Positions 12,264 through 64,000 of a stretch of 64,000 nucleotides of DNA are shown here, one piece after another. The notes under the pieces are model-generated. The model worked only from the letters and a program-made list of their open reading frames with translations, had not been told where the DNA came from and did not search any database. Origin of the DNA: Flavobacteriales bacterium (GTDB lineage Bacteria > Bacteroidota > Bacteroidia > Flavobacteriales_C > GCA-002722245); assembly GCA_023251095.1 (NCBI GenBank), contig JAHEZL010000007.1, positions 15,136 through 79,135 of the forward strand. Direction: 5' to 3'. Numbering within the stretch: position 1 is the stretch's first letter; every line of letters starts with the position of its first letter. Made by a program: the position numbers and the translations under genes.

Positions 12264-14519
12264 ATGAAAATACATTTTTTAAAAGCAGGGCTCCTTTTAC
12301 TTTGGTTCTTTTCTTTCATTAGCTCGGCTAAAGCAGAGATAGCCGGTGAAGTTAAGTTTGAAGTTATGTCGACTTACATCAAAATAAGTTGGGATGTATT
12401 TCAAGAAAACCGATATGAGGGAATAGAACTCAAAAGGAGACGAGTAGGGGAATCGGCCTGGCAGTCTATTACTCCAAATGGCTTTGGAGAAACAAATGGT
12501 ACAGTGAATGAATACCAGGAGTTTTGGGATTATAATATTCAATATGGAACTAAGTATCAATATTTAGTTGTTTATGATGAAAAAGCTTGGTACGATGGTT
12601 TTCCAACAGGTAATAATTACAGAGAAGAAATTTTACCGGGAAAACCTACAGCCTGGGGTATTCCCTCTGATGTTGCTGCAGATTTAGAAACCTGGCCTGT
12701 GATCACAGTTAATGGTTATGCTGCTACGGTTCAAGTGTTGTATTCTAACAGATCTGATAAAAGGTTAAAAAAGCCCTTAATCATTGTGGATGGTTTCGAT
12801 CCTTTAAATAACAGGGATTTATTTAGTACAAAAGAAAAAAATGCCATAGATTCAAGAGGACTTTTTGCTTTAATGAATGGTGATCTTCCTTCGGGTCCAA
12901 GAGGAATTAATGCAGTGGGACAAATTCGTCAACAGTGTTATGATTTGGTTTTTGTAAACTGGCATGAAGGAGCCGGAGACGTTAGGAAAAATGCTGATTT
13001 ATTTATTCAAGTTGTCAATTTGGTCAATCAAGCAAAAGTAACCGCCGAACAACTGGTAGTGTTTGGTCCCAGTATGGGAGGTCTGATTACACGTTTAGCT
13101 TTAGCTAAAATGGAGATAAGTGGCCAGAATCACCAAACGAGATTATATATTTCTATGGACTCACCACATTTAGGAGGACAGGCTCCGATGGGTGTTCAGA
13201 AGTTAGGTCAAATAGTAGATAATATTAGAGGGACTCATACATTTGCGGATAGATTGGGATCAACGGCTGCAAAGCAAATGTTGAGATATCATCTTTTTGC
13301 TTCACCAGATGGTCATGTTGCTGATCAAGATGCTGAAAGGTATTCTTTTATTAATGATTTAAACAGTATGAGCAATAAAGGGTGGCCAATGAATTTGCGT
13401 AAAATAGCAATTTCTAATGGAAGTGTTTTGTCGGGCACAAACAGTTTAAATGGCGGTACACATATAGCTGATATCATGTGCGGTGCATTGGAATATGATA
13501 TTTATGCTTTTGGAAGAAGTGATAATGTATATATGATCAATCGTTTAACAACCGTTGAGTATAATACATCGCTGCCTCCGATTTTAACGGATAATTCTAG
13601 TGGTGGAACTATAAACTTTACTGAAATGTTAAGGACGATAGTTACCAATAATGGGGATGATTGTATGCATGATGAAGATCCTGGTCTTCAAACGAGCTCT
13701 TGTTTTATACCAATTAATAGTGCGTTTGCCTATAATGAAGCAGCAGCCAGTGATTATTCTAAGTACAATAATGGATTAAGTGCAGATAATATTCATAAAG
13801 TATGGGGATCACAAACACCATCTACTGTGAATACTCCTTTCGATGCATTGTTTGGTCAAACTTACAATCAAACCCATTGTCAGGTTGACCAAGTAACAAT
13901 TGACTGGCTCCTTCAGCAAATGGCCATTCAGGATCAATACGCTTTTGGAGACACCTATTTTCCTGTTCAAGGAAGTAGCGATATAAGTATCTACACCGGA
14001 GGAGGAAGTAATTGGGCTAAAAATATGTACTTCGCTTCTAATCCAAATGATGGGGCGCACATATATGGTACCGACCGAAAATTCATCGCGTCTAAAAGCA
14101 TTACCTTATCACCGGGTACGAAGGTTTTTTCTCTCGGCGGAACAGATCATCCATACACTGCTTTTCAAATTGGAGCCAGACCGGATTGCTATGGTCCTAT
14201 CACCCAGTATTCTAATCCGGCGGGTCCGCCGCCAATGGCAGAGAAAACTGATGAAACAGCCGATGCGGTTTCAGAGCTAAACATTCAAAATGTAAATGTT
14301 TATCCTAACCCGAATAATGGAAATTTCACTCTTCAGTTAAATCCCGATTGGATCAGTGGAACTATCGTTGTGACGGATCTTACCGGTCGCACTATGTATA
14401 CTGACCAAGTCCGCAGTAGCATGGAAAACATTACAGCTGATATAGCAGCGGGAGTTTACTCTGTTACGATAAGCAAAGGAGACAATAAAATAACTCGAAA
14501 ATTTGTGGTTGTAAAATAA
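12264..14519 (+). CDS. T9SS-secreted alpha/beta-hydrolase, a PGAP1-like/DUF676-type lipase or esterase with an N-terminal FN3-like domain (B2).
   Basis: There is a signal peptide. The nucleophile elbow is VVFGPSMGGLITR (GxSxG), followed by DSPHLGG. The C-terminal T9SS CTD reads YPNPNNGNFTLQL...VYSVTI...KFVVVK. Confidence 0.6.
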   Translation: MKIHFLKAGLLLLWFFSFISSAKAEIAGEVKFEVMSTYIKISWDVFQENRYEGIELKRRRVGESAWQSITPNGFGETNGTVNEYQEFWDYNIQYGTKYQYLVVYDEKAWYDGFPTGNNYREEILPGKPTAWGIPSDVAADLETWPVITVNGYAATVQVLYSNRSDKRLKKPLIIVDGFDPLNNRDLFSTKEKNAIDSRGLFALMNGDLPSGPRGINAVGQIRQQCYDLVFVNWHEGAGDVRKNADLFIQVVNLVNQAKVTAEQLVVFGPSMGGLITRLALAKMEISGQNHQTRLYISMDSPHLGGQAPMGVQKLGQIVDNIRGTHTFADRLGSTAAKQMLRYHLFASPDGHVADQDAERYSFINDLNSMSNKGWPMNLRKIAISNGSVLSGTNSLNGGTHIADIMCGALEYDIYAFGRSDNVYMINRLTTVEYNTSLPPILTDNSSGGTINFTEMLRTIVTNNGDDCMHDEDPGLQTSSCFIPINSAFAYNEAAASDYSKYNNGLSADNIHKVWGSQTPSTVNTPFDALFGQTYNQTHCQVDQVTIDWLLQQMAIQDQYAFGDTYFPVQGSSDISIYTGGGSNWAKNMYFASNPNDGAHIYGTDRKFIASKSITLSPGTKVFSLGGTDHPYTAFQIGARPDCYGPITQYSNPAGPPPMAEKTDETADAVSELNIQNVNVYPNPNNGNFTLQLNPDWISGTIVVTDLTGRTMYTDQVRSSMENITADIAAGVYSVTISKGDNKITRKFVVVK

Positions 14520-14540
14520 CAGATTTCTTTTTCTTTGAAA

Positions 14541-14565
14541 ATCCCCGGTAGAAATACCGGGGATT
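14541..14565 (+). terminator. Intrinsic terminator after B2.
   Basis: The hairpin ATCCCCGG-tagaaata-CCGGGGAT is followed by a T-rich tract. Confidence 0.6.
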
Positions 14566-14576
14566 TTTCTTTTTTC

Positions 14577-14606
14577 TACCGTTAAATAAATCAATATAAC
14601 CGTTCA
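14577..14606 (+). promoter_or_regulatory. A third copy of the operator-like motif (CTACCGTTAAATAAAT plus a second CCGTT core 21 bp downstream), upstream of B3.
   Basis: The 13-mer CCGTTAAATAAAT is shared with the A1 site, and CCGTTtAATAAAT with the A2 site. Confidence 0.35.
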
Positions 14607-14775
14607 TCCTTTTTATTTTTTAAAGAGACTTATCTGCTATAATTTGGTGCTATTGATTATGGGAGTAATCAACTTGAGCATAACTAAAACATAAATTGTG
14701 AAAAGAGTGTTGATCTGCCTTTCGTTATGGCCTTGAATTACCATAACGACTTTTAAAATAACTAAACCTGAACTT

Positions 14776-16980
14776 ATGAAATTAAAAAACTATTCTAGAT
14801 ATCTGTTGATAGCATTGTGTGTCATGGCCGGCAATTTATTTGCTACTCCGGTTACCTTCAATTATTTTACTCCAACTACATCCATTGGTGCTCTTTCTGT
14901 TACAAAAAAGATTGCGTCCGAACACAATGGCTCCATTTGTAGCGGTGAGTATATGACCATATTCGCATCCGGACATACTTCAATTGTGAAGCCATATATT
15001 ATTGTAGAAGGAATAGATTTTTTAAACGATCAGGATTTTCAGGCGCATGTGGATTTATACAACAATAATGTGTCTTCAGCTTCAAATTCTTTGTTGTTTA
15101 ACCTTTACAATAATGGCTATGATGTTATCATACTGGATTTTGATTATTCCGGAGATTATATTCAAAACAATGCTTTCCTGTTAGTGGAATTAATAAAACA
15201 CATCAATGCCATTAAAGCCAATACAGGTAATAATATGATCGTACAAGGTTATAGCATGGGTGGTTTAGTTGCGAGATATGCATTGACATGGATGGAAGCT
15301 AATCTGATTGAGCATCAAACCAGGTTGTTTATTACTCATGACACGCCACACAAAGGAGCAAATTTCCCTATAGGCCTGCAGGAATTAGTGAACGATATGA
15401 CAGAACACATGCCTATTGCTTGGGTTGGGTTTCAAACTATTTTGGCTTCATTTGAAAAATCATATCCAGGCGCTACTCAAATGTTAGTATACCATTGGTC
15501 ACATACACATGGTGGAACTGTTAGCGGTGCAGGAAGTAAAGCACTGCCCGCAAATAAAAAAATAAATTTTTTCCAGGAATTGTATAATCTTAATCCCAGT
15601 GATAATGGTTACCCTTCTAAACCGCTGAGAATTGCTGTTTCAAATGGAAATTATTCAGGTCAACTTCAGGCGGGAATTACCCCGGGAGATGCAATGTTAA
15701 GTTTCAATTATACCCGCACTGTAGGAACAAAGCATTACAAATGGCCTTCTCCACTTTGCGGCAGTCTTTTTGACTTTAATGGATGTGACATTAACTGGGG
15801 TGATGATTATTACAGAGGTACCGCTCGTTATGGATTTACAGGTTATACTGCTACTGAAAATTTTGAGTTTTATACTTCCGGAATTGCAGATTTCGGGAAT
15901 TTGGGTACAAGGACTTATTATCCGCTTTCGGGTAGTGGTTCGCAAAATTTTTCTACAGAAAATTACGATTATGATCGTGCACCGGGGTCCTACCTGCCAA
16001 GTTTCTTTTTAACGATAGTCGAAGATGCCATTAAAACGGGACTTACTTCAGATGTATATATTAATCCTAATCCGCCTTGCTTCATTGCCACTACAAGCGC
16101 ATTAGATTTAAATATGCCTATCAATTCAACTTTCGATCCTAATAACTCTCGTTGTTTTACCAATTTTGATTACATCTTTGCTAACAGTTCGGCCAATTTA
16201 CACCATTTTGAATTGGCTCCTTTGGCAAAAAACTTTATAATGACACATGTTTTGGTTAATGAGGTGCCTAATAGGCCAATTGCTTATCAGGGGTATGATT
16301 TAGTTATTCCCAATAATACTATTGTTTATTCCGGACAATCCTATAACAAAACAGTTCAGCATAACATTACTAATGCTGGGAATTTCACGCTCAAAAGCAA
16401 TAGCTCTTCTGGATTGATTGCTGGAAATTCAATTACCTTTTCCCCTGGTTTTAAAGCAGAAACAGGAAGTAATTTCTCTGCGAAAATAAAATCTGCAAGC
16501 TCAATGTGTAGTGGTGGAATAGCGTATTTACCAAATTATGTCCTTGATTATGTAGTGGGAGGTCCCCCGGTTGAAAATGGTCCGTTGCCAGAAGAAAATA
16601 CAACGGAAGACTTTAGTAACTATGTAGCTTATAATTGCTCAAATATGGAAGAAATGCCTAATTATTCTTCTGAACGAACTTACTTTATTTGTGATGTTGA
16701 TACAACCATTAATATTGATTCAACGCTTGCGCAAAACATTAGTATATATCCTAATCCTACCAGCGGGCCTCTGACCATTCAACTAAGCGATCAAATTCCT
16801 TTAAATGATTTGTCAATTAAAGTTTTTGATCCCTATAACAATTTAGTTGCTGAGTTTTTGACAGTAACATCAAGAACGGTGAATTTAGATTTTTCCAATG
16901 GCTATACAGGCTTGTATAATGTTCAGTTTAATTTCTTTTCCGGCGCGTACATTTATAGCCGGAAAGTCATGAAAATGTGA
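14776..16980 (+). CDS. T9SS-secreted alpha/beta-hydrolase (PGAP1-like lipase or esterase), a paralog of B2 (B3).
   Basis: There is a signal peptide. The motifs are IVQGYSMGGLVARYAL and HDTPHKGAN. The C-terminal T9SS CTD reads YPNPTSGPLTIQL...GLYNVQF... Confidence 0.6.
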   Translation: MKLKNYSRYLLIALCVMAGNLFATPVTFNYFTPTTSIGALSVTKKIASEHNGSICSGEYMTIFASGHTSIVKPYIIVEGIDFLNDQDFQAHVDLYNNNVSSASNSLLFNLYNNGYDVIILDFDYSGDYIQNNAFLLVELIKHINAIKANTGNNMIVQGYSMGGLVARYALTWMEANLIEHQTRLFITHDTPHKGANFPIGLQELVNDMTEHMPIAWVGFQTILASFEKSYPGATQMLVYHWSHTHGGTVSGAGSKALPANKKINFFQELYNLNPSDNGYPSKPLRIAVSNGNYSGQLQAGITPGDAMLSFNYTRTVGTKHYKWPSPLCGSLFDFNGCDINWGDDYYRGTARYGFTGYTATENFEFYTSGIADFGNLGTRTYYPLSGSGSQNFSTENYDYDRAPGSYLPSFFLTIVEDAIKTGLTSDVYINPNPPCFIATTSALDLNMPINSTFDPNNSRCFTNFDYIFANSSANLHHFELAPLAKNFIMTHVLVNEVPNRPIAYQGYDLVIPNNTIVYSGQSYNKTVQHNITNAGNFTLKSNSSSGLIAGNSITFSPGFKAETGSNFSAKIKSASSMCSGGIAYLPNYVLDYVVGGPPVENGPLPEENTTEDFSNYVAYNCSNMEEMPNYSSERTYFICDVDTTINIDSTLAQNISIYPNPTSGPLTIQLSDQIPLNDLSIKVFDPYNNLVAEFLTVTSRTVNLDFSNGYTGLYNVQFNFFSGAYIYSRKVMKM

Positions 16981-27614: not shown

Positions 27615-27744
27615 TTGTTTGCTGTTTTCTGACAATTGAATGTTCGCTTCCTCTTGCTATTTCTCGCTTATTTCTAAATCTACCGAATCATAGGTATTTT
27701 TAAGTCATTTACTTACCTTTGCCACTTTGTGTTTACAAGATATT

Positions 27745-29127
27745 ATGGACAAACAAAATACTCTCGATAAAGAAATTTCCCTTGAAGGCGTGGGATTGCA
27801 CACCGGACAGATTGTTAAATTAACTTTCAAACCTGCCGCTGAAGATCACGGAATAGTATTTCAAAGAATTGATATTGAAGGTCAGCCAAAAGTTCAGGCT
27901 GTTGCCGAAAATGTAACGGAAGTTCAAAGGGGAACAACCATTGAAAAAAAGGCTGCAAAAGTAAATACGATTGAACATGTGATGGCTTCTTTAGTGGCTT
28001 TGCAAATCGACAATTGTTTGATTGAGCTCAACGGACAAGAGGTTCCCATCATGGATGGCAGCGCAAAACCTTTTATTGATCTACTTAAAAAAGCAGGTAT
28101 TAAACAACAGGAAAAAGCCCGTAAATACTACGTTGTACAAGAAACTATCGTTTATAAAGATGAGGCCAGAGGCGTTGAGTTGATGATAGTGCCCGATGAT
28201 AAATACAGTCTTACGGCAATGATTGATTTCAATTCTCCGGTTTTAGGAACGCAACATGCGTCATTGGATAAACTTGAAGATTTTGAAGAAAATATCGCTT
28301 CCTCCCGTACTTTTTGTTTTTTACACGAGTTAGAACAATTGCTCAACAACAACCTCATTAAAGGTGGTGATTTAAGCAATGCTATTGTGGTGGTGGATAA
28401 AGTGGTGCAACAAAGCGAACTGGATACACTGGCGAAGTTGTTCAACAGAACACACATTGAAGTAAAACAGGAAGGTATTTTAAATAATGTTGAGCTGCGT
28501 CATCAAAATGAACCGGCCCGCCATAAATTGCTAGATGTTGTTGGTGATTTAGGATTGGTAGGCGCTCCGATAAAAGGAAAAGTTTTTGCCAAAAAACCGG
28601 GTCATGCTGCCAACGTTGAATTTGCTAAACTTATCAGAAAAAAAATGGAAGCAGAAAAAGATGCTGCCCCTCGTTTCGATTTGACCAAAACGGTTTATGA
28701 CATCAACAAAATCATGGAGCTGTTGCCTCACCGTCCGCCTTTCCTCTTTGTTGATCGCATCATTGCCATGGGCAAAGAAACCATCGTTGGTTGTAAAAAT
28801 GTAACGATGAATGAAACGTTTTTTCAAGGGCATTTTCCAGGACAACCAATATTTCCGGGTGTTTTACAATTGGAAGCCATGGCGCAGGCAGGTGGTATTT
28901 TGGCCTTGAGTCAGGTTCCTGATCCGGAAAATTATCTGACTTACTTCATGAAAATCGATAAAGTTAAATTCCGTCATCCGGTTGTTCCGGGTGATACAAT
29001 AATATTTTCTTTACACTTTGTTTCTCCTTTCCGCAGAGGAATTGTGCACATGGGCGGCTATGCTTATGTAGGAGATAAAATAGTGATGGAAGCAGAAATG
29101 ATGGCTCAATTAGCAAAAGTGAAATAA
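27745..29127 (+). CDS. lpxC/fabZ: Bifunctional UDP-3-O-acyl-GlcNAc deacetylase and 3-hydroxyacyl-ACP dehydratase (LpxC-FabZ fusion).
   Basis: The N-terminal LpxC domain (HTGQIVKLTF...) is fused to a C-terminal FabZ hotdog domain (FFQGHFPGQPIFPGVLQLEAMAQ). The listed ORF starts at 27727, but MDKQNTL at 27745 is the likelier start. Confidence 0.85.
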   Translation: MDKQNTLDKEISLEGVGLHTGQIVKLTFKPAAEDHGIVFQRIDIEGQPKVQAVAENVTEVQRGTTIEKKAAKVNTIEHVMASLVALQIDNCLIELNGQEVPIMDGSAKPFIDLLKKAGIKQQEKARKYYVVQETIVYKDEARGVELMIVPDDKYSLTAMIDFNSPVLGTQHASLDKLEDFEENIASSRTFCFLHELEQLLNNNLIKGGDLSNAIVVVDKVVQQSELDTLAKLFNRTHIEVKQEGILNNVELRHQNEPARHKLLDVVGDLGLVGAPIKGKVFAKKPGHAANVEFAKLIRKKMEAEKDAAPRFDLTKTVYDINKIMELLPHRPPFLFVDRIIAMGKETIVGCKNVTMNETFFQGHFPGQPIFPGVLQLEAMAQAGGILALSQVPDPENYLTYFMKIDKVKFRHPVVPGDTIIFSLHFVSPFRRGIVHMGGYAYVGDKIVMEAEMMAQLAKVK

Positions 29128-57223: not shown

Positions 57224-57478
57224 ATGAACATAAAGAAAAATATAGCCCTCAGCGATTCAGGATTCGTTTTTGATCCGTCCAGCGGAGATTCATTTTCCAC
57301 CAATCCCATTGGTTTGGAAATTATTAAACTGTTGAAAAACGGGAAGTCGGCAGATGAAATTAAAAAGCACGTTACTTCGGCGTATATGATAGATGAAAAT
57401 TCTTTTGAAAAAGATTTTTATGATTTCGTAAACATGCTTCAGAAGTTGAAAATTGCTGAAGGAGAAGATAAGAAGTAG
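57224..57478 (+). CDS. PqqD-family (RiPP-recognition-element-like) small protein.
   Basis: The protein is 84 aa. The segment FSTNPIGLEIIKLLKNGKSADEIKKHVTSAYMIDE..FEKDFYDFVNMLQKLKI follows the PqqD pattern. Confidence 0.5.
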   Translation: MNIKKNIALSDSGFVFDPSSGDSFSTNPIGLEIIKLLKNGKSADEIKKHVTSAYMIDENSFEKDFYDFVNMLQKLKIAEGEDKK

Positions 57479-57499
57479 TCTGTTGCTAAATCCACTTAA

Positions 57500-58549
57500 A
57501 TGAAAAAGAAAAAATTAACCATTGCTGTCACAGGTTTGAACGCCATTGACAGTCCGGGACCGGGAGTTCCGGTAATTCGCGCCCTGCGTGAGAGCAAGTA
57601 CTTTGATGTGCGCATCATCGGACTTTCCTATGAAGCGCTGGAGCCGGGTATATATATGCACGACTTGGTAGATAAAACTTATCAGATTCCTTTTCCATCT
57701 ACAGGAATTGATAGTTTGCTCACGCGTTTGCAATACATCAATGATCAGGAAAACATTGATTTGATCATTCCGAATTTTGATGCTGAGTTGTTCAGCTTTA
57801 TTAAACTGGTGGATCATCTGGAAAAGAAAATGAACATTAAAGTTTTCGTTCCTACGGTTGAACAGTTTGAAGAGCGTCACAAAGTCAACTTAGATGAGTT
57901 TGGAAAAAAACACAAAATAAAAGTTCCTTACAGCAAAATGATTTTCAGTACGGTTGAAATTCCTGCGCTGAAAGATCAGTTCACTTATCCGCTGGTGGTG
58001 AAAGGAAAATTCTATGATGCTTCGGTGGCTTATACACCTGAACAAGCGGCCAGTTATTTCAATAAAATCAGTGCGAAATGGGGCTTGCCGATTATCATTC
58101 AGCAATTTGTTCACGGACAGGAAGTAAATGTTACCGCCCTCGGTGATGGTAAAGGCAATACGATAGGTGCAGTGCCAATGCGTAAAACTTACATCACAGA
58201 TAAAGGAAAGGCCTGGGCCGGAATTTCTATCTCTGATGAGAAGCTGATGAGCATGACTAAAAAAATGATCAAGTCGAGTAAATGGCGTGGAGGTTTAGAA
58301 TTGGAAATTATTAAAACCGCCAACGACGACTATTATCTTTTAGAAATCAATCCGCGTTTTCCTGCCTGGGTTTATTTCGCGGTTGGTTGCGGACAAAATC
58401 ATCCGGAAGCCCTGGTGCGGATAGCTATGGGAGAAGACGTTAAGCCTTTCAAGAAATACGATGTCGGAAAAATGTTCGTCCGTTATTCTTTCGACATGAT
58501 AGTGGATTTAAAAGAATTTGAAAAAATATCAACCCTTGGGGAACTCTAG
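57500..58549 (+). CDS. ATP-grasp domain ligase.
   Basis: The segment YYLLEINPRFPAWV is ATP-grasp-like. The fold is typical at 349 aa. Confidence 0.65.
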   Translation: MKKKKLTIAVTGLNAIDSPGPGVPVIRALRESKYFDVRIIGLSYEALEPGIYMHDLVDKTYQIPFPSTGIDSLLTRLQYINDQENIDLIIPNFDAELFSFIKLVDHLEKKMNIKVFVPTVEQFEERHKVNLDEFGKKHKIKVPYSKMIFSTVEIPALKDQFTYPLVVKGKFYDASVAYTPEQAASYFNKISAKWGLPIIIQQFVHGQEVNVTALGDGKGNTIGAVPMRKTYITDKGKAWAGISISDEKLMSMTKKMIKSSKWRGGLELEIIKTANDDYYLLEINPRFPAWVYFAVGCGQNHPEALVRIAMGEDVKPFKKYDVGKMFVRYSFDMIVDLKEFEKISTLGEL

Positions 58550-58592
58550 CCCGAGTCGGGCAGGCAATTAAGAACTTTTAAAAAAATAAAAA

Positions 58593-59951
58593 ATGAAAAA
58601 GCTACAATATGAACGTCCGGTCATCACCCGCTTAAATACGGGAGTTACCAATAAATTCGGAACAAAAACAGCATTTACTCCGGTTACGCATGTAGATGGA
58701 AATGCAGTAAAAACTTTGATTGCAAATTATGGATCACCACTGTTTGTGATATCGGAACAAACCATTCGCAAAACTTTTAAAGATGCGAACAGAGCCTTCA
58801 CCACGCGTTATCCTAAGGTGCAATTTGCGTGGTCGTATAAAACAAATTACATCAACGCAGTGTGTAATGTATTTCATCAGGAAGGCTCATGGGCCGAGGT
58901 GGTATCGGGTTTTGAATATCACAAAGCATTGAACAACGATGTGCCTGGAAGTAAAATTATTTTCAACGGTCCGGATAAAACCGAAGCCGATTTACGCCTG
59001 GCGATTGAAAACAATTCATTGATTCACATCGATCATTTGGATGAGTTGTATCTCATTAAAGAACTGGCGGTGGAGATGAATAAAAAACCAAGAGTGGCCA
59101 TTCGTGTGAATATGGATACGGGCGTTTATCCTATCTGGGATCGTTTTGGATTCAACTATGAAAACGGACAAGCCTGGGATGCGATCAACAAAATTATGCT
59201 GAACGATAAAATGGAACTGGTGGGCTTACATGCACACATCGGAACTTTCATGTTGTCGCCAAATGCTTATGGAATCGCAGCTTCAAAGCTTTCTGAATTG
59301 GCTTTGAGTATCAAGAAAAAATATAAAAAGAACATTCAGTATTTAGATTTAGGCGGAGGTTTCGCATCAAAAAATACCTTGAAAGGCTCGTATTTACAGG
59401 GTGTTGATACATCACCAACTTTTGATCAATATGCTGAAGCCATTTCAACTGCGATATTGAATGCCGGATTTATAGAAGATGAATTGCCTTTGTTGATTTT
59501 GGAATCGGGCAGATCACTGATAGATGAAGCAGGAACATTATTAGGAACTGTGATTTCCAACAAACGCTTATCCGACGGGCGACGCGCAACGATCATGGAT
59601 TTTGGTGTAAACATTTTATTCACTTCTTTCTGGTACGATCACAAGATCAGTCCGGCGCAGGATTTCAGTCAGTACACTGAAGATGCGGTATTGTACGGTC
59701 CCTTGTGTATGAACATCGACGTCATCAGAGAAAATTGCACGCTGCCTCCGTTAAAGCGCGATGACCACGTGGTGGTGCACACTGTAGGGGCTTACAACAT
59801 GACGCAATGGATGCAATTTATTGCGATGCGTCCGGCGGTGATCATGATTGATATGGATGAAAAACCACACATCATCAGAAGAAGAGAAACATTGAGCACT
59901 ATAGAAAGTGTGGAGATGATGCCTGAATATTTGAAAAAATTTAAATTGTAA
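58593..59951 (+). CDS. PLP-dependent decarboxylase of the Orn/DAP/Arg family (alanine-racemase fold type III).
   Basis: The PLP-lysine region reads FAWSYKTNY. The motifs YLDLGGGF and the EPGR-like ESGRSL are present. Confidence 0.7.
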   Translation: MKKLQYERPVITRLNTGVTNKFGTKTAFTPVTHVDGNAVKTLIANYGSPLFVISEQTIRKTFKDANRAFTTRYPKVQFAWSYKTNYINAVCNVFHQEGSWAEVVSGFEYHKALNNDVPGSKIIFNGPDKTEADLRLAIENNSLIHIDHLDELYLIKELAVEMNKKPRVAIRVNMDTGVYPIWDRFGFNYENGQAWDAINKIMLNDKMELVGLHAHIGTFMLSPNAYGIAASKLSELALSIKKKYKKNIQYLDLGGGFASKNTLKGSYLQGVDTSPTFDQYAEAISTAILNAGFIEDELPLLILESGRSLIDEAGTLLGTVISNKRLSDGRRATIMDFGVNILFTSFWYDHKISPAQDFSQYTEDAVLYGPLCMNIDVIRENCTLPPLKRDDHVVVHTVGAYNMTQWMQFIAMRPAVIMIDMDEKPHIIRRRETLSTIESVEMMPEYLKKFKL

Positions 59952-59959
59952 TTTTAACT

Positions 59960-60032
59960 CTCGTCATTGCGAGGTACTCCGAAGCAATCTCATAAAGGTT
60001 GATAAGATTGCTTCGTTCCTCGCAATGACGAG
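59960..60032. repeat. Long imperfect hairpin of about 73 nt, between the decarboxylase gene and the UT-M23 gene.
   Basis: The outer stem CTCGTCATTGCGAGG pairs with CCTCGCAATGACGAG. The inner stem GAAGCAATCT pairs with AGATTGCTTC. Confidence 0.7.
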
Positions 60033-60058
60033 CTTGATTAATCTATGAATTCAGAACT

Positions 60059-62236
60059 ATGAAATTCTACCGGGACAGTATCGTCAATAGCTATGCGCAA
60101 ATATTTTTCTCTAACCATAAATGGTTTGCGTATTTATTGCTGATCGCCAGTTTTATTGATCCTTATTTAGGTTTGAGCGGATTGATCGCTGCCACTGCTT
60201 CCGTGTTTTTTGCGAAGTGGATGGGCTTCAATAAAGAAACTATTCGCACAGGAATGTATTCTTATAATTCCATTCTGGTAGGATTTACGATCGCTGTTTT
60301 TTATAAAATGTCCTTGCCTTTTTTCGGATTGTTATTGCTGGCTTCTTTATTAACGATGTTGCTTACCGTGTGCTTGTCGGCTTTTGTTTCATCCTATAAA
60401 ATTCCTTTTTTGAGTTTGCCTTTCATGTTTTCGGTGTGGGCGATATTGAAAAGTGTAGGAGGTCATGGGTTTAAAGCGGTAGAGTGGAGTGAACGGGGAA
60501 TATATAGTATCAACGAATACTATAGTTTCTGGGGGCCTGAAATGGGCGAATTCATGAAGAATTTAGCCGAAGTGAAATTCCCATTATTGATTGATGTTTA
60601 TCTGAAATCACTGGGCGCTATTTTCTTTCAATACAATTTGCTCACGGGAATTTTAATTGCGGTGGGCTTGTTGATTTATTCGCGGATTGCTTTCTCTTTG
60701 TCGGTGCTTGGATTTTTAACCGGATACTTTTTTGTTCAGTATTTCCATGGAAATATGGATGAGTTGGAATACAGTTATATCGGTTTCAATTACATTTTAA
60801 CTTCCATTGCTTTGGGCGGATTTTTCATGGTGCCGTCTTGGAGATCCTACGTGTTGGTGATGGTGTGCGCGGCTTTAATTGCCTTAAGCATAAGTTCATT
60901 GGGTAAATTCTTTTCGGTTTTTGGCTTACCGATTTATTCGCTTCCTTTTTCTTTGATAGTGATGCTGGTGATTTATGCACTCAACAATCGTTATTCATTA
61001 AACGGTTTGAATATGGTGCAGTACCAGCTTTATTCTCCCGAGAAAAATTTATACACTTTCCGTAACCGCTTGGAACGATTTAAAAACGATACTTACTTCC
61101 ATATTCATTTGCCTTATTTCGGAGAATGGTTTGTATCGCAGGCCCACGAAGGAAAAATAACACATAAAGAAGACTGGCGTTTTGCTTTCGATTTTGTGAT
61201 TGCCGATGAAACACAAAAAACTTTTAAATCGCCGGGCGAACAACTCACCGATTTTTATTGTTACAATTTACCTGTGTTGTCGCCTGCTGCAGGCTATGTA
61301 GTCACATTGGTAGATGGTATTGAAGACAATAATATCGGCGATGTGAATTTGGGAGAAAACTGGGGAAATACGATTGTGATTAAGCACGCCGATTTTTTAT
61401 ACAGCAAAATCTCGCACATCAAACAAGGATCATTTAAAGTGAAGTTGGGCGATTATGTAAAAAAAGGAGAAGTGCTGGCAAGCTGTGGTAATTCAGGAAG
61501 ATCTCCCGAACCGCACATCCATTTTCAAATGCAGTCGACACCTTTTGTGGGGGCCAAAACCTTAAAATATCCTATTGCTTATTACGTATCAAAACTGAAC
61601 GGTCAGTATAAATTTCATTCGTTTGATTATCCGCTGGAAGGTCAAACAGTTTTCAGAATAAACACTACTGCCTTACTCAAAAACAATTTTGATTTTGTAC
61701 CCGGTATGACCATGGATTTTGCAGTGGATACCAACGGTGAAAAAACCAATGTGAAGTGGGAAGTATTTGTGGATGCGGCCAATCAGGCGTACATCTATTG
61801 TCACGAAACTGAATCGGTGGCCTATTTTGTGAACAATGAAACGCTGCATTATTTCACCGATTTTAAAGGCGATAAAACATCATTGCTCTACTATTTTTAT
61901 TTAGGAGCACATAAAATTTTACTGGGTTACTATGATCAGTTAGAGGTGAAGGATATTTTACCTATTGATGGCTTCTTCACCGGATTTGCTAAAGTAATAC
62001 AAGATTTTGTGGCGCCTTTCGGTATTTATTTGAAAACGCAATACACCGCAAAATTTATGGAGATCGACGATTTGCTGAGTCCCACCAAAATAAAAATATC
62101 TTCTTCCGCACAAGTTAAAATCGGTAGCAGCGTGCGAAGAAAAATTGATTTTGATTTTGTAATAAATCACAGTAAGAATTTCACAATGACTATTAACGAA
62201 GGAAAAGTATGCAAGCACGTTATTCGTATAGCTTAA
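60059..62236 (+). CDS. Fusion of a urea-transporter-family (UT) membrane domain to a C-terminal M23 (LytM-type) metallopeptidase domain.
   Basis: The N-terminus (YAQIFFSN...YSYNSILVGFTI...IPFLSLPFMFSVW) aligns with bacterial UT signatures. The C-terminus (GNTIVIKHADFLYSKISHIK...GNSGRSPEPHIHFQMQ) carries the M23 motifs. Confidence 0.6.
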   Translation: MKFYRDSIVNSYAQIFFSNHKWFAYLLLIASFIDPYLGLSGLIAATASVFFAKWMGFNKETIRTGMYSYNSILVGFTIAVFYKMSLPFFGLLLLASLLTMLLTVCLSAFVSSYKIPFLSLPFMFSVWAILKSVGGHGFKAVEWSERGIYSINEYYSFWGPEMGEFMKNLAEVKFPLLIDVYLKSLGAIFFQYNLLTGILIAVGLLIYSRIAFSLSVLGFLTGYFFVQYFHGNMDELEYSYIGFNYILTSIALGGFFMVPSWRSYVLVMVCAALIALSISSLGKFFSVFGLPIYSLPFSLIVMLVIYALNNRYSLNGLNMVQYQLYSPEKNLYTFRNRLERFKNDTYFHIHLPYFGEWFVSQAHEGKITHKEDWRFAFDFVIADETQKTFKSPGEQLTDFYCYNLPVLSPAAGYVVTLVDGIEDNNIGDVNLGENWGNTIVIKHADFLYSKISHIKQGSFKVKLGDYVKKGEVLASCGNSGRSPEPHIHFQMQSTPFVGAKTLKYPIAYYVSKLNGQYKFHSFDYPLEGQTVFRINTTALLKNNFDFVPGMTMDFAVDTNGEKTNVKWEVFVDAANQAYIYCHETESVAYFVNNETLHYFTDFKGDKTSLLYYFYLGAHKILLGYYDQLEVKDILPIDGFFTGFAKVIQDFVAPFGIYLKTQYTAKFMEIDDLLSPTKIKISSSAQVKIGSSVRRKIDFDFVINHSKNFTMTINEGKVCKHVIRIA

Positions 62237-63423
62237 TATTTTCTTTTTTGCTTTTGTGCGCTGTGAATAGCTATTCGCAGCAAACATTAAACACGCAGGT
62301 GGTAGCAAAAAGATCATATGGAATGTATCTCAAGCAGCAATGGCCCGAGCTGATTGCCTATGGTGATTCGGTTTTGAAATTGGGATATGATTATTATTAC
62401 ATCCGCATGCGCATGGGCATTGCCTATTTTGAATTAAAAAAATATCGTTTGGCTGAGCCTCATTTTAAAAAGGCGATTGAGTTCAATGCTCAGGAAGATT
62501 TGGCGTATGAATATTTGTATTACATCTACGTTTATACCGACAGGTTTGAGGAAAGCAGAAAACTTACTAAAAAATTCAGTGCAACTTTAAAACAAAAATT
62601 ACAAAGCGACAGTTTGCCCAAAGTAGAGTATAGATTTGCTGAAGCAGGGGAAAAAATAAGTAATAATACGGAAACGCCCAATGCTACTTATGTTCAGCTC
62701 GGATTGGGTCATAATATTGCAAATAACTTTTCGCTTTTACACGCTTACACTTATTACGGACAAGGAAATAATGAGTGGAAAATAAATCAAAATCAGTATT
62801 ACATCAGAGCGAATTTTCCCATGAAAAATAATTTTATGTTGTCGGGAGCTTTTCATTTTGTAGAAAGAAGTACGGCTCTGTTTTCTAATACAGGCAATTT
62901 TACGGGCTCGACAAAACCAAGCTCTGTGCTCTTTACTTACAATTATGTAGAATCAATTTTACTCAGAAAAAGTTTTGAGAGATTTGATGCTTCACTGGGA
63001 TCAACGGTTTTATGGCTGGATAGTGTTTTTCAATTTCAACACAATGCAATGATTAATTACTTTCCGCTTGGAAATAATAAATTAGGGATAGGTGCAAATG
63101 TTTATTTGTATACAAGGGATGCGTATTCCAGTGTGAATTTTGTTTTCGTGCCCTTTGTTTCGTTTAAACCTCTTCAGAAACTTTCGTTGTTTGGAAGTTA
63201 TTTACTGAATTCAGGTTACAACAACATAGCAGAATGGAATGGATATGTAGTCAATAATTCCCCTGATTTAACAACAGGAAAGTTAACCCTTAATGCCGAT
63301 TGGACCATCAATAAAAAATGGGATTTATACGCCACTTATCAATACGAAAACAAACAATTATTTGCCACAACAACAGAATATCAATTCAATTCAATTTTTG
63401 TAGGAATAAAATTTAAACCTTAA
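62209..63423 (+). CDS. Hypothetical secreted protein, possibly an outer-membrane protein.
   Basis: It has a signal peptide, a TPR-like N-terminal segment and a beta-rich remainder. Confidence 0.3.
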   Translation: MQARYSYSLIFSFLLLCAVNSYSQQTLNTQVVAKRSYGMYLKQQWPELIAYGDSVLKLGYDYYYIRMRMGIAYFELKKYRLAEPHFKKAIEFNAQEDLAYEYLYYIYVYTDRFEESRKLTKKFSATLKQKLQSDSLPKVEYRFAEAGEKISNNTETPNATYVQLGLGHNIANNFSLLHAYTYYGQGNNEWKINQNQYYIRANFPMKNNFMLSGAFHFVERSTALFSNTGNFTGSTKPSSVLFTYNYVESILLRKSFERFDASLGSTVLWLDSVFQFQHNAMINYFPLGNNKLGIGANVYLYTRDAYSSVNFVFVPFVSFKPLQKLSLFGSYLLNSGYNNIAEWNGYVVNNSPDLTTGKLTLNADWTINKKWDLYATYQYENKQLFATTTEYQFNSIFVGIKFKP

Positions 63424-63443: not shown

Positions 63444-64000
63444 ATGAAAATCGTATATAAATTATTATTGAGTGCAATGTTTATCGGAGGGATGAATACT
63501 GTGCGTGCGCAAGATAACTCTTTACAAGATGTTTTTACGCAAAGTTATTATTCGGAAAAGCAGGCAAATTACACCTTGGCGATTTCGGCAATGAAAAAAG
63601 TTTATGATGCTCAATCCTATGAAATTAATTTGCGTTTGGGATGGTTGAGTTATGAGGCGGGAATGTACAAGGAGTCGCTCAATTATTATCAGATTGCAGT
63701 TGCGTTGATGCCTTATTCCATTGAAGCAAAATTAGGATTGGTGTATCCTGCAGCGGCATTGGGAAATATGACGCAGGTGACCGATGCCTATAAAAAAATA
63801 TTGGAAATTGATCCACAAAACACCACTGCCAATTACCGCATGGGATATATTTTTTACGACAAAAAAGATTACCAGTCGGCTTTCCCTTATTTTGAAAAAG
63901 TAGTGAATTTATATCCTTTTAGTTATGACGGATTGTTGATGTTTGCGTGGACCAATTATCAATTGGGAAAAACGCGTGAAGCACATGTGTTGTTCAATAA
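63444..64000 (+). CDS. Secreted TPR-repeat protein. The 3' end runs off the window.
   Basis: It has a signal peptide and TPR-like repeats. Confidence 0.45.
   Translation, partial: MKIVYKLLLSAMFIGGMNTVRAQDNSLQDVFTQSYYSEKQANYTLAISAMKKVYDAQSYEINLRLGWLSYEAGMYKESLNYYQIAVALMPYSIEAKLGLVYPAAALGNMTQVTDAYKKILEIDPQNTTANYRMGYIFYDKKDYQSAFPYFEKVVNLYPFSYDGLLMFAWTNYQLGKTREAHVLFN

What the first reader, a model, noticed from the sequence alone, without database searches (positions are those of the whole stretch)
57224..62236. PqqD-like protein, ATP-grasp ligase, PLP decarboxylase and a UT-domain/M23 peptidase fusion: a candidate novel modification or biosynthetic cluster
Four co-directional genes sit with short intergenic gaps. 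The first (84 aa) matches the PqqD/RRE pattern, which in RiPP pathways presents a precursor peptide to a modifying enzyme. Next come an ATP-grasp ligase and a fold-III PLP decarboxylase of the ornithine/DAP/arginine type. The last is a polytopic membrane protein whose N-terminus aligns with urea-transporter-family signatures and whose C-terminus is an M23 (lysostaphin/LytM-type) endopeptidase. The ATP-grasp plus decarboxylase pairing is reminiscent of the butirosin enzymes BtrJ and BtrK, which act on a small carrier protein. The combination with an RRE-like protein and an M23 peptidase anchored on a channel-like domain is not, to my knowledge, a described system. It could make or process a peptide or amino-acid-derived molecule. 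It could also remodel peptidoglycan stem peptides using a DAP-type substrate.
Basis: partly seen in the sequence, partly recalled or inferred. Interest (0 to 1): 0.75.

Follow-up and report, generated by a model that had tools for sequence, protein, structure and literature searches.

The report
Conserved PqqD–ligase–decarboxylase–channel envelope operon
A six-gene operon found in hundreds of uncultured Bacteroidota (its core also occurs in other bacteria) links a peptide-binding chaperone, an ATP-dependent ligase and a decarboxylase to a urea-channel-like membrane protein that carries a cytoplasmic peptidase, plus periplasmic and outer-membrane partners; no searchable paper or curated family model describes it, and its product is unknown.

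Summary
All four ORFs exist at the given coordinates and pass Pfam thresholds: PqqD, ATP-grasp, fold-III PLP decarboxylase and UT+M23. Two more genes belong to the unit. One is a TPR + 14-strand outer-membrane barrel (62209-63423). The other is a secreted TPR protein (63444 to the window end). In 80 Bacteroidota loci the order is kept. Where contigs are long enough, the decarboxylase is present in 69/69, UT in 63/65, M23 in 61/63, gene 5 in 58/61 and gene 6 in 46/54.

Distant relatives contain PqqD-ATP-grasp and ATP-grasp-decarboxylase fusion proteins. They keep a UT protein but replace M23 with SIR2, SIR2+GNAT or a separate hydrolase. This places the post-UT domain in the cytoplasm. The decarboxylase is FigC/BtrK-like, not a DAP decarboxylase.

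No precursor peptide gene, acyl carrier protein, riboswitch or defence signature was found. The peptidoglycan-remodelling idea is not supported, and canonical RiPP membership is unproven.

Best model (confidence about 0.4): ligate, decarboxylate and cleave an amide-linked amino-acid conjugate at a UT channel that feeds an envelope-spanning route. It appears undescribed.

The parts
57224..57478 (+). PqqD-like / RRE-type peptide-binding protein (84 aa). Best read as a binding module, not a covalent carrier.
   Evidence: Pfam PF05402 E 4.3e-8, above cutoff. All NCBIfam PqqD subfamilies score below their cutoffs. It is present in 80/80 loci. The beta-sheet face N.A.S..GF.F.P..G.SF..NPIG is invariant and the C-terminal tail is variable. 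Across distant systems only G21, N27 and D64 are invariant. It is fused to the ATP-grasp in P0437.
57500..58549 (+). CPS-like ATP-grasp amide ligase (349 aa).
   Evidence: Pfam ATPgrasp_Ter and ATP-grasp_3. NCBIfam PRK12767-type match at 3.6e-28, below cutoff. The family profile against the PDB gives 2pn1 at 1.9e-20 and CPS at 1e-18, PylC only at 0.0037, and no graspetide, RimK or LysX affinity. Orthologues are 68-97% identical. The family has 225 representatives at E<1e-30, including tandem forms and fusions.
58593..59951 (+). Fold-III PLP decarboxylase of the FigC/BtrK clade (452 aa), with an N-terminal extension of about 30 aa.
   Evidence: PDB matches: 7kh2 FigC 2.6e-59, DAPDC 8.4e-37, BtrK 1.8e-22. 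NCBIfam FslC scores 238 bits (cutoff 500) and lysA 210.7 (cutoff 297.9). K83, H215, E304, R307, C372, Y401 and the specificity residues T344, W347, Y348, M373, I375, Q405 are invariant in 70 orthologues (W406 in 69 of 70). The N-terminal Y-E/Q-x-P motif is conserved in distant versions.
60059..60988 (+). UT (urea-transporter family) channel domain, residues 1-310 of the 725-aa protein.
61121..61558 (+). M23 (LytM/lysostaphin-type) metallopeptidase domain, about residues 355-500, predicted to be cytoplasmic.
61691..62236 (+). C-terminal beta-rich domain of the UT-M23 protein (about residues 545-725), with a LolA-like curved sheet. Function unknown.
62209..63423 (+). Gene 5: signal peptide + TPR domain (residues 29-131) + 14-strand outer-membrane beta-barrel (residues 139-402). 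It overlaps gene 4 by 28 nt.
63444..64000 (+). Gene 6 (truncated by the window end; 205 aa in full): secreted TPR protein.
   Evidence: Pfam TPR_2, TPR_1 and TPR_19. The full sequence has a signal peptide in L081:5116-5733. It is present in 46/54 loci with room. It shares LGW..Y..G.Y repeats with the signal-peptide TPR proteins encoded next to PqqD in L085, L086, L093 and L092.

Best explanation
This is an envelope-spanning pathway that builds, trims and hands over an amide-linked amino-acid conjugate.

Inferred sequence of steps:
1. The PqqD/RRE protein presents a peptide or protein segment to the ATP-grasp. That segment is still unidentified and is not encoded in the operon.
2. The ATP-grasp forms an amide between a carboxylate and an amine. 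This leaves one amino acid attached through its side chain, with its alpha-amino-acid head free. Either N-omega-acyl-Orn/Lys or a gamma-Glu/beta-Asp amide would fit.
3. The FigC/BtrK-type PLP decarboxylase removes that alpha-carboxylate. The result is an amine-terminated amide that resembles an acyl-lysine side chain.
4. The cytoplasmic M23 domain tethered under the UT channel cleaves an amide bond, either releasing or processing the product. In other lineages a sirtuin or another hydrolase takes this place.
5. A small, slender, amide-bearing product passes through the UT pore.
6. The secreted TPR protein and the TPR-barrel protein take the product across the periplasm and the outer membrane.

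What is shown: gene content, conservation, gene fusions, protein folds, intact catalytic residues, and the FigC-like neutral pocket of the decarboxylase.

What is inferred: substrate identity, the polarity of the amide, the direction of transport, and the role of the M23 domain.
For: Conservation:
- The six genes are colinear in 76/80 loci. Co-occurrence where contigs allow is 69/69, 63/65, 61/63, 58/61 and 46/54.

Gene fusions:
- PqqD+ATP-grasp (P0437) and ATP-grasp+decarboxylase (P0394). The latter was read on 7 contigs.

Core kept in distant lineages (PqqD, one or two ATP-grasps, decarboxylase, UT protein):
- L085, L086, L087, L090 and L092.

Non-orthologous displacement of the domain fused to UT:
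- M23 (window, L087, L092), canonical sirtuin (L086), sirtuin+GNAT (L085), or UT alone followed by an alpha/beta-hydrolase (L090).
- All of these act on acyl-amine or ester bonds. SIR2 and GNAT need cytoplasmic cofactors.

Decarboxylase:
- It is closest to FigC (2.6e-59) and shares T327, Y331 and M355 with it, but not the citrate-binding H357 and R387 (PMC7857480).
- That clade decarboxylates side-chain-conjugated amino acids.

Other folds and components:
- The UT fold and most pore motifs are intact.
- The M23 catalytic His and Asp residues are invariant.
- Gene 5 is a TPR + 14-strand channel-like barrel, and gene 6 is secreted.
- Homologous secreted TPR proteins are coupled to PqqD in L085, L086 and L093.
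Against: - No precursor or carrier gene was found, so the PqqD ligand is unknown.
- The UT pore is narrow, and nothing shows that it carries anything other than urea-like solutes.
- The direction could be import or salvage rather than export.
- The L090 hydrolase has a signal peptide or membrane anchor, so it may not be equivalent to the cytoplasmic M23/SIR2 domains.
- L082-84 and L093 lack a recognisable UT protein.
- The cytoplasmic location of M23 rests on UT topology from the literature, the charge bias of the loops and the SIR2/GNAT analogy. There is no experiment.
- The M23 metal motif has unusual spacing (H-x8-D).
- All evidence is comparative.
Confidence: 0.4

Rival explanations
1. Canonical RiPP gene cluster. 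A ribosomal precursor encoded elsewhere in the genome is bound by the PqqD RRE and modified by the ATP-grasp, for example by adding a diamino acid to a C-terminus or an acidic side chain. The decarboxylase then yields a peptide with a terminal amine. M23 removes the leader at a Gly-rich site, and the product is secreted as a bioactive peptide.
For: - An RRE-type PqqD is the deepest partner of the ATP-grasp and is fused to it in P0437.
- M23 enzymes typically cut Gly-Gly-type bonds (family knowledge). M23 peptidases, including the Gly-Gly endopeptidases LytM and lysostaphin, are the structural neighbours.
- TPR partners are classical peptide binders.
- A peptidase fused to a membrane translocator recalls PCAT exporters.
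Against: - No conserved small ORF was found in 80+ loci or in the 400 nt upstream of PqqD.
- The enzymes are 68-98% identical across orders, which is unusually conservative for antimicrobial RiPPs.
- M23 is replaced by a sirtuin in other lineages. A sirtuin is not a leader peptidase.
- A UT pore is too narrow for a normal peptide.
- The ATP-grasp is CPS-like, not graspetide-like.
Confidence: 0.17
2. Carrier-free small-molecule pathway. The ATP-grasp joins two small metabolites and the decarboxylase trims the conjugate, as in the rhizoferrin and staphyloferrin B logic. This would give an acyl-diamine-type metabolite such as a siderophore, osmolyte or signal, which leaves through UT and the outer-membrane barrel. 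PqqD would only be a protein-protein adaptor, possibly docking the conserved N-terminal extension of the decarboxylase.
For: - FigC, SbnH and AcsE are all small-molecule decarboxylases in the same clade.
- The ATP-grasp is closest to small-molecule ligases.
- No precursor was found.
- The decarboxylase N-terminal motif Y-E/Q-x-P is conserved.
- High enzyme conservation suits a fixed small substrate.
Against: - PqqD-family domains are known only as peptide binders.
- The ATP-grasp-decarboxylase fusion P0394 still keeps a separate PqqD.
- This model does not explain why an amide hydrolase or deacylase is always attached to the channel.
- There is no TonB-dependent receptor or uptake system as expected for a siderophore.
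Confidence: 0.22
3. Peptidoglycan or cell-envelope remodelling. The M23 domain cleaves stem-peptide cross-links, and the ATP-grasp and decarboxylase alter a DAP-containing precursor.
For: - M23 structural neighbours are peptidoglycan hydrolases.
- The decarboxylase is homologous to DAPDC.
- Envelope-located partners are present.
- A related outgroup ATP-grasp sits in an MBOAT/polysaccharide locus.
Against: - DAPDC R343 is Thr344 here, and the acidic residue next to the catalytic Cys is Met.
- lysA scores below its cutoff.
- The M23 domain is predicted to be cytoplasmic and is exchangeable with SIR2/GNAT.
- There are no Mur-ligase or PBP neighbours.
Confidence: 0.04
4. Urea or small-amide uptake and nitrogen metabolism. 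UT imports urea or a related amide, and the attached and neighbouring enzymes process or sense it.
For: - The UT fold is genuine and most pore residues are retained.
- Channels are bidirectional.
- The outer-membrane barrel resembles uptake channels such as CymA, OmpG and FadL.
Against: - No urease, urea carboxylase or allophanate hydrolase is in the operon.
- The yut equivalog cutoff is not met.
- An RRE plus an anabolic ATP-grasp and a decarboxylase have no role in urea use.
- The filter is altered (T to S twice, E to A).
Confidence: 0.05

Closest known systems
Butirosin AHBA side-chain enzymes BtrI/BtrJ/BtrK (carrier protein, ATP-grasp, fold-III PLP decarboxylase)
   Same: - An ATP-grasp ligase is paired with a decarboxylase of the same clade (BtrK 2j66/7ru7, E about 1.8e-22).
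- That decarboxylase acts on an amino acid held through its side chain.
- Tandem or duplicated ATP-grasps in distant versions recall BtrJ acting twice.
   Different: - There is no acyl carrier protein. A PqqD/RRE protein is present instead.
- The decarboxylase is much closer to FigC than to BtrK.
- The system is coupled to a UT-hydrolase membrane protein and to TPR/outer-membrane components.
- It has no aminoglycoside context.
FigC/FslC N-citrylornithine decarboxylase with the NIS synthetase FigA/FslA (rhizoferrin); SbnH and AcsE analogues
   Same: - FigC is the closest solved relative (7kh2, 2.6e-59).
- The specificity-helix Thr and Tyr, and the Met next to the catalytic Cys, are shared.
- The logic is the same: ligate first, then decarboxylate the conjugate (PMC7857480).
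   Different: - The ligase is an ATP-grasp, not an IucA/IucC NIS synthetase.
- The citrate-binding H357 and R387 are Ile375 and Gln405 here, with Trp347 and Trp406 adding a neutral, aromatic pocket.
- The NCBIfam FslC score is 238, below its cutoff of 500.
- There is no MFS exporter or siderophore receptor.
RRE/PqqD-dependent pathways that make small molecules on a ribosomal scaffold (PQQ, mycofactocin, PEARL/3-thiaglutamate, fosfazinomycin)
   Same: - A PqqD-type recognition protein accompanies highly conserved tailoring enzymes and a hydrolase that could release the product.
- Fosfazinomycin shows RiPP machinery being reused for a small molecule (PMC13622209).
   Different: - No scaffold or precursor gene was found.
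- There is no radical-SAM, PEARL or Asn-synthetase-like enzyme.
- The pathway is attached to a membrane channel and to outer-membrane components.
LysW / amino-group carrier protein pathways (LysX ATP-grasp, LysK release peptidase)
   Same: The conceptual cycle is the same: an ATP-grasp attaches an amino acid to a carrier, enzymes modify it, and a metallopeptidase releases it.
   Different: - The PqqD protein has no conserved acidic C-terminal tail.
- The ATP-grasp shows no LysX/RimK affinity.
- The release enzyme belongs to a different family.
UT-family urea channels (dvUT, UT-A/UT-B) and the UT + M23 domain combination listed in PMC12998343
   Same: - The UT-M23 architecture itself has been catalogued.
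   Different: - That paper assigns no function or genomic context.
- Here the UT protein is embedded in a conserved biosynthetic operon.
- Its C-terminal partner varies (M23, SIR2, SIR2+GNAT).
- The filter has Thr to Ser and Glu to Ala changes.
TPR + beta-barrel outer-membrane exporters of synthase-dependent polymer secretion (PgaA, BcsC, PelB, AlgK/AlgE)
   Same: - An N-terminal periplasmic TPR domain is fused to an outer-membrane barrel.
- It is encoded next to an inner-membrane component and cytoplasmic synthesis enzymes.
   Different: - There is no glycosyltransferase synthase.
- The TPR domain is far shorter.

Membership tests
RiPP biosynthetic gene cluster | A gene for a ribosomal precursor peptide | tested here: not met
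   Clustering of small ORFs (18 aa or longer) in 81 loci found only PqqD and its shadow frames. ATG ORFs of 10 aa or longer within 400 nt upstream of PqqD in 23 loci share nothing. A precursor encoded elsewhere in the genome cannot be excluded.
RiPP biosynthetic gene cluster | An RRE / PqqD-like recognition domain | tested here: met
   PF05402 at 33.8 bits, above the cutoff of 23.4. It is fused to the ATP-grasp in P0437.
RiPP biosynthetic gene cluster | A tailoring enzyme shown to act on the peptide, and a leader peptidase | not testable with these tools
   Requires biochemistry. M23 is a candidate peptidase, but a sirtuin replaces it in L085 and L086.
Graspetide (microviridin-type) ATP-grasp | Membership of the MvdC/MdnC-type ATP-grasp family | tested here: not met
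   TIGR04185 E 0.033, 13.3 bits against a cutoff of 425. The family profile hits CPS-like enzymes, not graspetide ligases.
BtrI/J/K-type carrier pathway | An acyl carrier protein encoded with the ligase and the decarboxylase | tested here: not met
   No ACP or PP-binding ORF occurs among the conserved gene families of 81 loci.
BtrI/J/K-type carrier pathway | A fold-III decarboxylase of the BtrK clade | tested here: met
   BtrK (2j66/7ru7) E about 1.8e-22, although FigC is far closer. The clade is defined in PMC7857480.
N-citrylornithine decarboxylase FslC/FigC | NCBIfam NF041039 score above its cutoff, and citrate-binding residues | tested here: not met
   238 bits against a cutoff of 500. FigC H357 and R387 are Ile375 and Gln405 here. 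No NIS synthetase neighbour is present.
Diaminopimelate decarboxylase LysA | TIGR01048 score above its cutoff, a distal-carboxylate Arg, and an acidic residue next to the catalytic Cys | tested here: not met
   210.7 bits against a cutoff of 297.9. DAPDC R343 aligns with Thr344, and the Cys-Glu/Asp pair is Cys372-Met373. Both are invariant in 70 orthologues.
Urea transporter (UT, PF03253) | The UT fold and family profile | tested here: met
   [not shown]
Urea transporter (UT, PF03253) | Urea-specific equivalog (TIGR03441) and an unaltered selectivity filter; urea flux | tested here: not met
   126.7 bits against a cutoff of 274.6. Thr becomes Ser at 119 and 294, and dvUT Glu187 becomes Ala. 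Flux itself cannot be tested here.
M23 peptidoglycan endopeptidase | The M23 fold with an HxH motif and a catalytic His | tested here: met
   [not shown]
M23 peptidoglycan endopeptidase | The canonical HxxxD metal motif | tested here: not met
   The invariant pair is H369...D378 (H-x8-D). D372 is not conserved; it is Ile in L087. The geometry could not be inspected.
M23 peptidoglycan endopeptidase | An extracytoplasmic location with access to the sacculus | tested here: inconclusive
   No signal peptide or extra TM helix follows the UT domain, and the linker is basic. SIR2 and GNAT, which need NAD and acyl-CoA, occupy the same position in homologues. This is an inference, not an experiment.
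LysW-type amino-group carrier protein | A small protein with a conserved C-terminal acidic attachment residue | tested here: not met
   The PqqD C-terminus varies in length and sequence, and L087 has no tail.
Anti-phage defence system | A match to known defence protein models | tested here: not met
   PADLOC gave no hits for the five window proteins. It gave only sub-threshold SIR2 hits for L086. The SIR2 domains carry canonical sirtuin deacylase motifs.
Synthase-dependent polymer secretion (PgaA/BcsC-type exporter) | A TPR + outer-membrane barrel exporter together with a membrane polymer synthase | tested here: inconclusive
   The TPR + barrel architecture is present. However, the barrel has 14 strands and is CymA/OmpG-like, and no glycosyltransferase synthase occurs in the conserved set.

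The most novel reading that the evidence does not exclude
A urea-channel fold has been repurposed as the inner-membrane conduit of a new kind of trans-envelope pathway. Cytoplasmic ATP-grasp and decarboxylase enzymes, guided by an RRE, would build a slender, side-chain-free amide product. This could be an acyl-diamine. With iterative ligate-decarboxylate cycles it could be an oligo(4-aminobutyrate) or oligo(beta-alanine)-type polyamide on a peptide primer. A channel-tethered amidase (M23, or a sirtuin in other phyla) would cut this product free. It would then thread through the UT slot and leave the cell through a dedicated TPR/14-strand barrel route.
Probability: 0.1. Interest if true: 0.9.

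Novelty: categorically new. Interest (0 to 1): 0.72.

Why it matters
If the model holds, it would be the first case of several things at once:
- A UT-family channel working as part of a biosynthetic or secretion apparatus rather than in urea handling.
- A cytoplasmic, channel-tethered M23 peptidase that is interchangeable with a sirtuin.
- An RRE/PqqD protein working with a CPS-like ATP-grasp and a FigC-type decarboxylase.

The system is abundant. About 456 species-level genomes have close relatives of the ATP-grasp, and thousands of metagenomic proteins match. Its hosts are uncultured freshwater and soil Bacteroidota, and a recognisable core occurs in other phyla. Its product could therefore be an ecologically important metabolite, signal or envelope component.

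The work also gives testable handles. There are fusion proteins to express, a defined decarboxylase pocket to probe, and a PqqD bait for finding the missing ligand.

If instead it proves to be an ordinary metabolite pathway, it still corrects the routine annotations "urea transporter", "carbamoyl-phosphate synthase large subunit" and "diaminopimelate decarboxylase" given to these genes.

Tried and rejected
1. Precursor peptide search. I clustered small ORFs (18-95 aa, outside long ORFs) from 81 loci. I also listed ATG ORFs of 10 aa or longer in the 400 nt upstream of PqqD in 23 loci. Nothing was conserved except PqqD shadow frames and the C-termini of upstream AraC regulators.
2. PqqD as a LysW-like covalent carrier. 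Rejected, because the tail is variable and there is no invariant Lys, Glu or Cys outside the fold core.
3. Riboswitch or attenuator upstream. Rfam at E up to 1 gave only spurious hits, and there are no convincing internal terminators.
4. Defence system. PADLOC was negative.
5. PylC-like lysine-acylating ligase. The family profile hits PylC only at E 0.0037, so no assignment is possible.
6. DAP decarboxylase and peptidoglycan remodelling. Rejected on active-site residues and topology.
7. Literature. Seven full-text searches found no description of the operon, and two RRE genome-mining papers read afterwards do not mention it. Only the UT+M23 domain combination is listed in PMC12998343.
8. [quoted passage not shown] Only weak resemblance to LolA-like or small-barrel folds was found.
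9. Source organism and cultured hosts. All close hits are MAGs with uninformative names.

Full report
**Observation**

All are on the + strand, separated by 21, 43 and 107 nt. Each domain assignment passes Pfam's own threshold:
- PqqD at 33.8 bits (cutoff 23.4).
- ATPgrasp_Ter and ATP-grasp_3.
- Orn_Arg_deC_N at 9e-30 plus Orn_DAP_Arg_deC at 3.7e-13.
- UT at 1.4e-61 over residues 6-307.
- Peptidase_M23 at 1.5e-13 over residues 403-492.

No NCBIfam equivalog reaches its cutoff for any of the four. FslC scores 238 against 500, lysA 210.7 against 297.9, urea_trans_yut 126.7 against 274.6, and every PqqD subfamily falls far below its cutoff. The June 2026 curated models therefore do not name this system.

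**Extent and conservation**

I scanned one genome per GTDB species with the ATP-grasp. It returned 456 relatives, and I kept the best 80 loci. All are Bacteroidota MAGs, variously labelled Flavobacteriales, Chitinophagales, Cyclobacteriaceae, Sphingobacteriaceae and Bacteroidales.

tblastn and ORF clustering show that the conserved unit is six genes, not four:
- PqqD.
- ATP-grasp.
- Decarboxylase.
- UT-M23.
- A 404-aa protein at 62209-63423, which overlaps gene 4 by 28 nt.
- A TPR protein of about 205 aa that starts at 63444 and runs off the window end.

Counting only contigs long enough to hold each gene, co-occurrence with the ATP-grasp is 69/69 for the decarboxylase, 63/65 for UT, 61/63 for M23, 58/61 for gene 5 and 46/54 for gene 6. 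Gene order is colinear in 76/80 loci. The median PqqD-to-ATP-grasp gap is 2 nt.

The window's upstream genes are not conserved with the operon. These are aroB, aroA, a response regulator, an MBL-fold protein and an SRPBCC protein. The two loci that lack UT-M23 (L067, L077) look rearranged or decayed, and in L077 the decarboxylase is split in two.

Median identities are 72% for the ATP-grasp, 79% for the decarboxylase, 60% for PqqD, 46% for UT, 56% for the M23 and C-terminal part, 30% for gene 5 and 54% for gene 6. The two soluble enzymes are under much stronger constraint than the envelope parts.

**Anatomy of the envelope parts**

The AlphaFold model of the 725-aa protein has a mean pLDDT of 85.8 and shows four regions:
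- A helical UT domain, residues 1-310.
- A conserved basic linker helix, residues 327-345.
- An M23 domain, about residues 355-500.
- A further beta-rich domain, about residues 545-725.

Most pore hallmarks of UT channels are kept: Q14, Y69 (equivalent to dvUT F80), L73, F243, L247 and both LPxx(T/S)xPF motifs. Both mid-pore Thr residues are Ser here, and the dvUT Glu187 position is Ala.

In the M23 domain, H369, D378, H443, H453, H486 and H488 are invariant in 39 homologues. The first metal motif is H-x8-D rather than HxxxD.

**The enzymes**

The decarboxylase's nearest solved relative is FigC/FslC, the N-citrylornithine decarboxylase (7kh2, 2.6e-59). This is far ahead of DAPDC (8.4e-37) and BtrK (1.8e-22). 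PMC7857480 places FigC, SbnH, AcsE, MccE, BtrK and DAPDC in one clade. The characterised members other than DAPDC act on amino acids whose side chain is already conjugated.

Residue by residue:
- FigC's specificity-helix T327 and Y331 correspond to T344 and Y348 here.
- The DAPDC Arg that binds the distal carboxylate aligns with T344.
- The Asp/Glu next to the catalytic Cys in basic-amino-acid decarboxylases is Met373, as in FigC.
- FigC's citrate-binding H357 and R387 are Ile375 and Gln405 here, flanked by Trp347 and Trp406.

These positions and the catalytic set (K83, H215, E304, R307, C372, Y401) are invariant in 70 orthologues, except W406, which is kept in 69 of 70. The enzyme therefore has one fixed substrate with a neutral, probably amide-linked side chain. 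It is not DAP, Orn, Lys or Arg, and it is not a citryl conjugate.

The ATP-grasp is CPS-like. Its family profile hits 2pn1 at 1.9e-20 and CPS at 1e-18, followed by biotin carboxylases and PurD. It has no affinity for graspetide, RimK or LysX enzymes, and PylC appears only at 0.0037.

**Distant relatives**

An exhaustive search of 1.84 billion representatives with the ATP-grasp found 225 proteins at E<1e-30. Among them are three informative types:
- A PqqD+ATP-grasp fusion (P0437, 477 aa).
- An ATP-grasp+decarboxylase fusion (P0394, 871 aa). It was read on 7 contigs, and a split form exists in the same cluster.
- Many tandem double ATP-grasps of about 710 aa.

Their genomic contexts are as follows:
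- L086: secreted TPR, PqqD, tandem ATP-grasp, decarboxylase, UT+SIR2.
- L085: secreted TPR, PqqD-ATP-grasp fusion, degenerate second ATP-grasp, decarboxylase, UT+SIR2+GNAT.
- L087: PqqD, ATP-grasp, decarboxylase, UT-M23, without TPR genes. Its neighbours include cytochrome bd oxidase and an Hda-like gene.
- L090/L091: PqqD, tandem ATP-grasp, decarboxylase, UT alone, then an alpha/beta-hydrolase.
- L092: the Bacteroidota six-gene pattern, but with the TPR and the barrel as separate genes.
- Deeper branches keep PqqD plus two ATP-grasp genes, again next to a secreted TPR protein in L093.
- L088/L089: an outgroup ATP-grasp at 40% identity sits in an MBOAT/polysaccharide locus without these partners.

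The SIR2 domains carry the canonical sirtuin motifs GAGVSTExGIPDxRS and TQNVDGLH. This marks them as CobB-type N-acyl-lysine deacylases. PADLOC finds no defence signature.

**What follows from this**

1. PqqD, the ATP-grasp and the decarboxylase act together. The fusions and their invariable adjacency show this.
2. A UT-family membrane protein is a constant fourth partner in most lineages.
3. The domain fused behind UT is replaceable by non-homologous enzymes that all handle acyl-amine bonds: M23, a sirtuin, or a sirtuin plus GNAT. The step at the channel is therefore probably cleavage or editing of an amide that resembles an acyl-lysine side chain.
4. Sirtuins need NAD and GNATs need acyl-CoA. 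No TM helix follows the UT domain, the linker is Arg/Lys-rich, and the central UT loop is acidic. The M23 domain is therefore very probably cytoplasmic (inference).
5. Secreted TPR proteins, and in Bacteroidota an outer-membrane barrel, complete an envelope-spanning arrangement.

**Mechanism proposed (confidence about 0.4)**

1. The RRE presents a peptide or protein segment to the ATP-grasp.
2. The ligase makes an amide that leaves an amino acid held by its side chain.
3. The FigC/BtrK-type enzyme decarboxylates the free alpha-centre.
4. The channel-tethered hydrolase cuts an amide.
5. A slender amide or amine product passes through the UT pore and then along the TPR/barrel route.

The following remain inferences: the polarity of the amide (N-omega-acyl-Orn/Lys versus a gamma-Glu/beta-Asp amide), the identity of the acyl or peptide partner, and the direction of transport.

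**What argues against a simple filing**

*RiPP.* The RRE is present but no precursor was found. The enzymes are unusually conserved, and a sirtuin cannot serve as a leader peptidase.

*BtrIJK or LysW.* There is no ACP, and PqqD has no conserved attachment tail.

*Rhizoferrin-type.* There is no NIS synthetase, and the citrate-binding residues are lost.

*Peptidoglycan remodelling.* The active site and the topology both speak against it.

*Urea uptake.* No urea-metabolising genes are present, and the filter is altered.

*Literature.* Seven full-text searches found only a listing of the UT+M23 domain combination, without context or function (PMC12998343). Two RRE genome-mining papers were also read and do not mention the system. 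A conceptual precedent exists for small molecules built on ribosomal scaffolds (PMC13622209). Nothing describes the operon.

**Unexplained**

- The decarboxylases of this system share an N-terminal extension of about 30 aa with a Y-E/Q-x-P-x-I/L motif. FigC and DAPDC lack it. It could be a docking peptide for PqqD, but the ATP-grasp-decarboxylase fusion still keeps a separate PqqD.
- The role of the LolA-like C-terminal domain is open.
- The unusual M23 metal motif is unexplained.
- It is unclear what a UT pore could carry in this context.

**Verdict**

The feature is real, strongly conserved and apparently undescribed. The peptidoglycan alternative is not supported, and the RiPP reading is unproven. 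The cluster is larger and more unusual than stated.

Noticed in passing
L088:7442-14474 and L089 (same coordinates): A related ATP-grasp (P0367, 40% identical to the window's) sits in a different conserved context. The gene order is MBOAT, LB_356 (PF27429), ATP-grasp, Peptidase_M1, followed by glycosyltransferase and sugar-modification genes. PqqD, decarboxylase and UT are all absent. This may be a separate system that aminoacylates a surface polymer.
   Followed up: no
L093:6673-19053: A deep-branching version of the system has a secreted 668-aa TPR protein, PqqD (87 aa), an ATP-grasp (350 aa), a 343-aa ATP-grasp-like protein without Pfam hits, and then a giant secreted protein of more than 2587 aa. 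No decarboxylase or UT gene is in view.
   Followed up: partly
L082:4972-14583 (also L083, L084): The lineage with the ATP-grasp-decarboxylase fusion has a different set of partners: a giant TPR protein, a TonB_C-like protein, a secreted 879-aa HEAT-repeat protein and a 637-aa protein without confident Pfam hits. No recognisable UT protein is present. A PAS histidine kinase follows.
   Followed up: partly
L008:459-1899; L035:110-1747; L077:5832-7525: Subsets of the Bacteroidota loci carry regulators directly next to the operon. Some have an AraC-family regulator and/or a LytTR response regulator upstream (about 21-24 loci each). Some have an ECF sigma factor with a Spy/LTXXQ-like periplasmic protein (about 12 loci). 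L077 has a LytTR two-component pair downstream. This hints at envelope-stress or signal-dependent control.
   Followed up: partly
window:58593-58700 and homologues: The decarboxylases of this system carry a conserved N-terminal extension (YERP.I.....G..NKFG; Y-E/Q-x-P in distant versions). FigC and DAPDC lack it.
   Followed up: partly
window:39524-43351: Three consecutive co-directional ORFs (447, 622 and 195 aa) have no Pfam match at E 1e-4 or better. A methyltransferase and RNase HII follow.
   Followed up: no
window:44819-51723: A run of three large proteins lies here. The first is a 935-aa DUF3352/FG-GAP protein. The second is a 692-aa protein with no Pfam hit. The third is a 649-aa DUF5723 protein with thrombospondin type-3 repeats. 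The second and third overlap by 4 nt.
   Followed up: no
window:55162-56918: A convergent gene pair lies just upstream of the operon. One is an MBL-fold hydrolase (361 aa, + strand). The other is a YgaP-like TM + SRPBCC/polyketide-cyclase protein (235 aa, - strand). Their 3' ends overlap by 37 nt. Neither is conserved with the operon in other loci.
   Followed up: partly
window:6139-7854, 12264-16980, 27727-29127: Host markers are present: several proteins with T9SS C-terminal sorting domains (Por_Secre_tail), including a GH16 protein, and an LpxC-FabA/FabZ-like fusion. These are consistent with a Bacteroidota chromosome.
   Followed up: partly
L081:6192-9319: In a contig that encodes this same UT-M23 protein and extends past the window end, gene 6 is followed by a 556-aa DUF7483 protein and, on the opposite strand, a GH18 protein with a T9SS sorting tail. 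These genes were not examined in the other loci.
   Followed up: no
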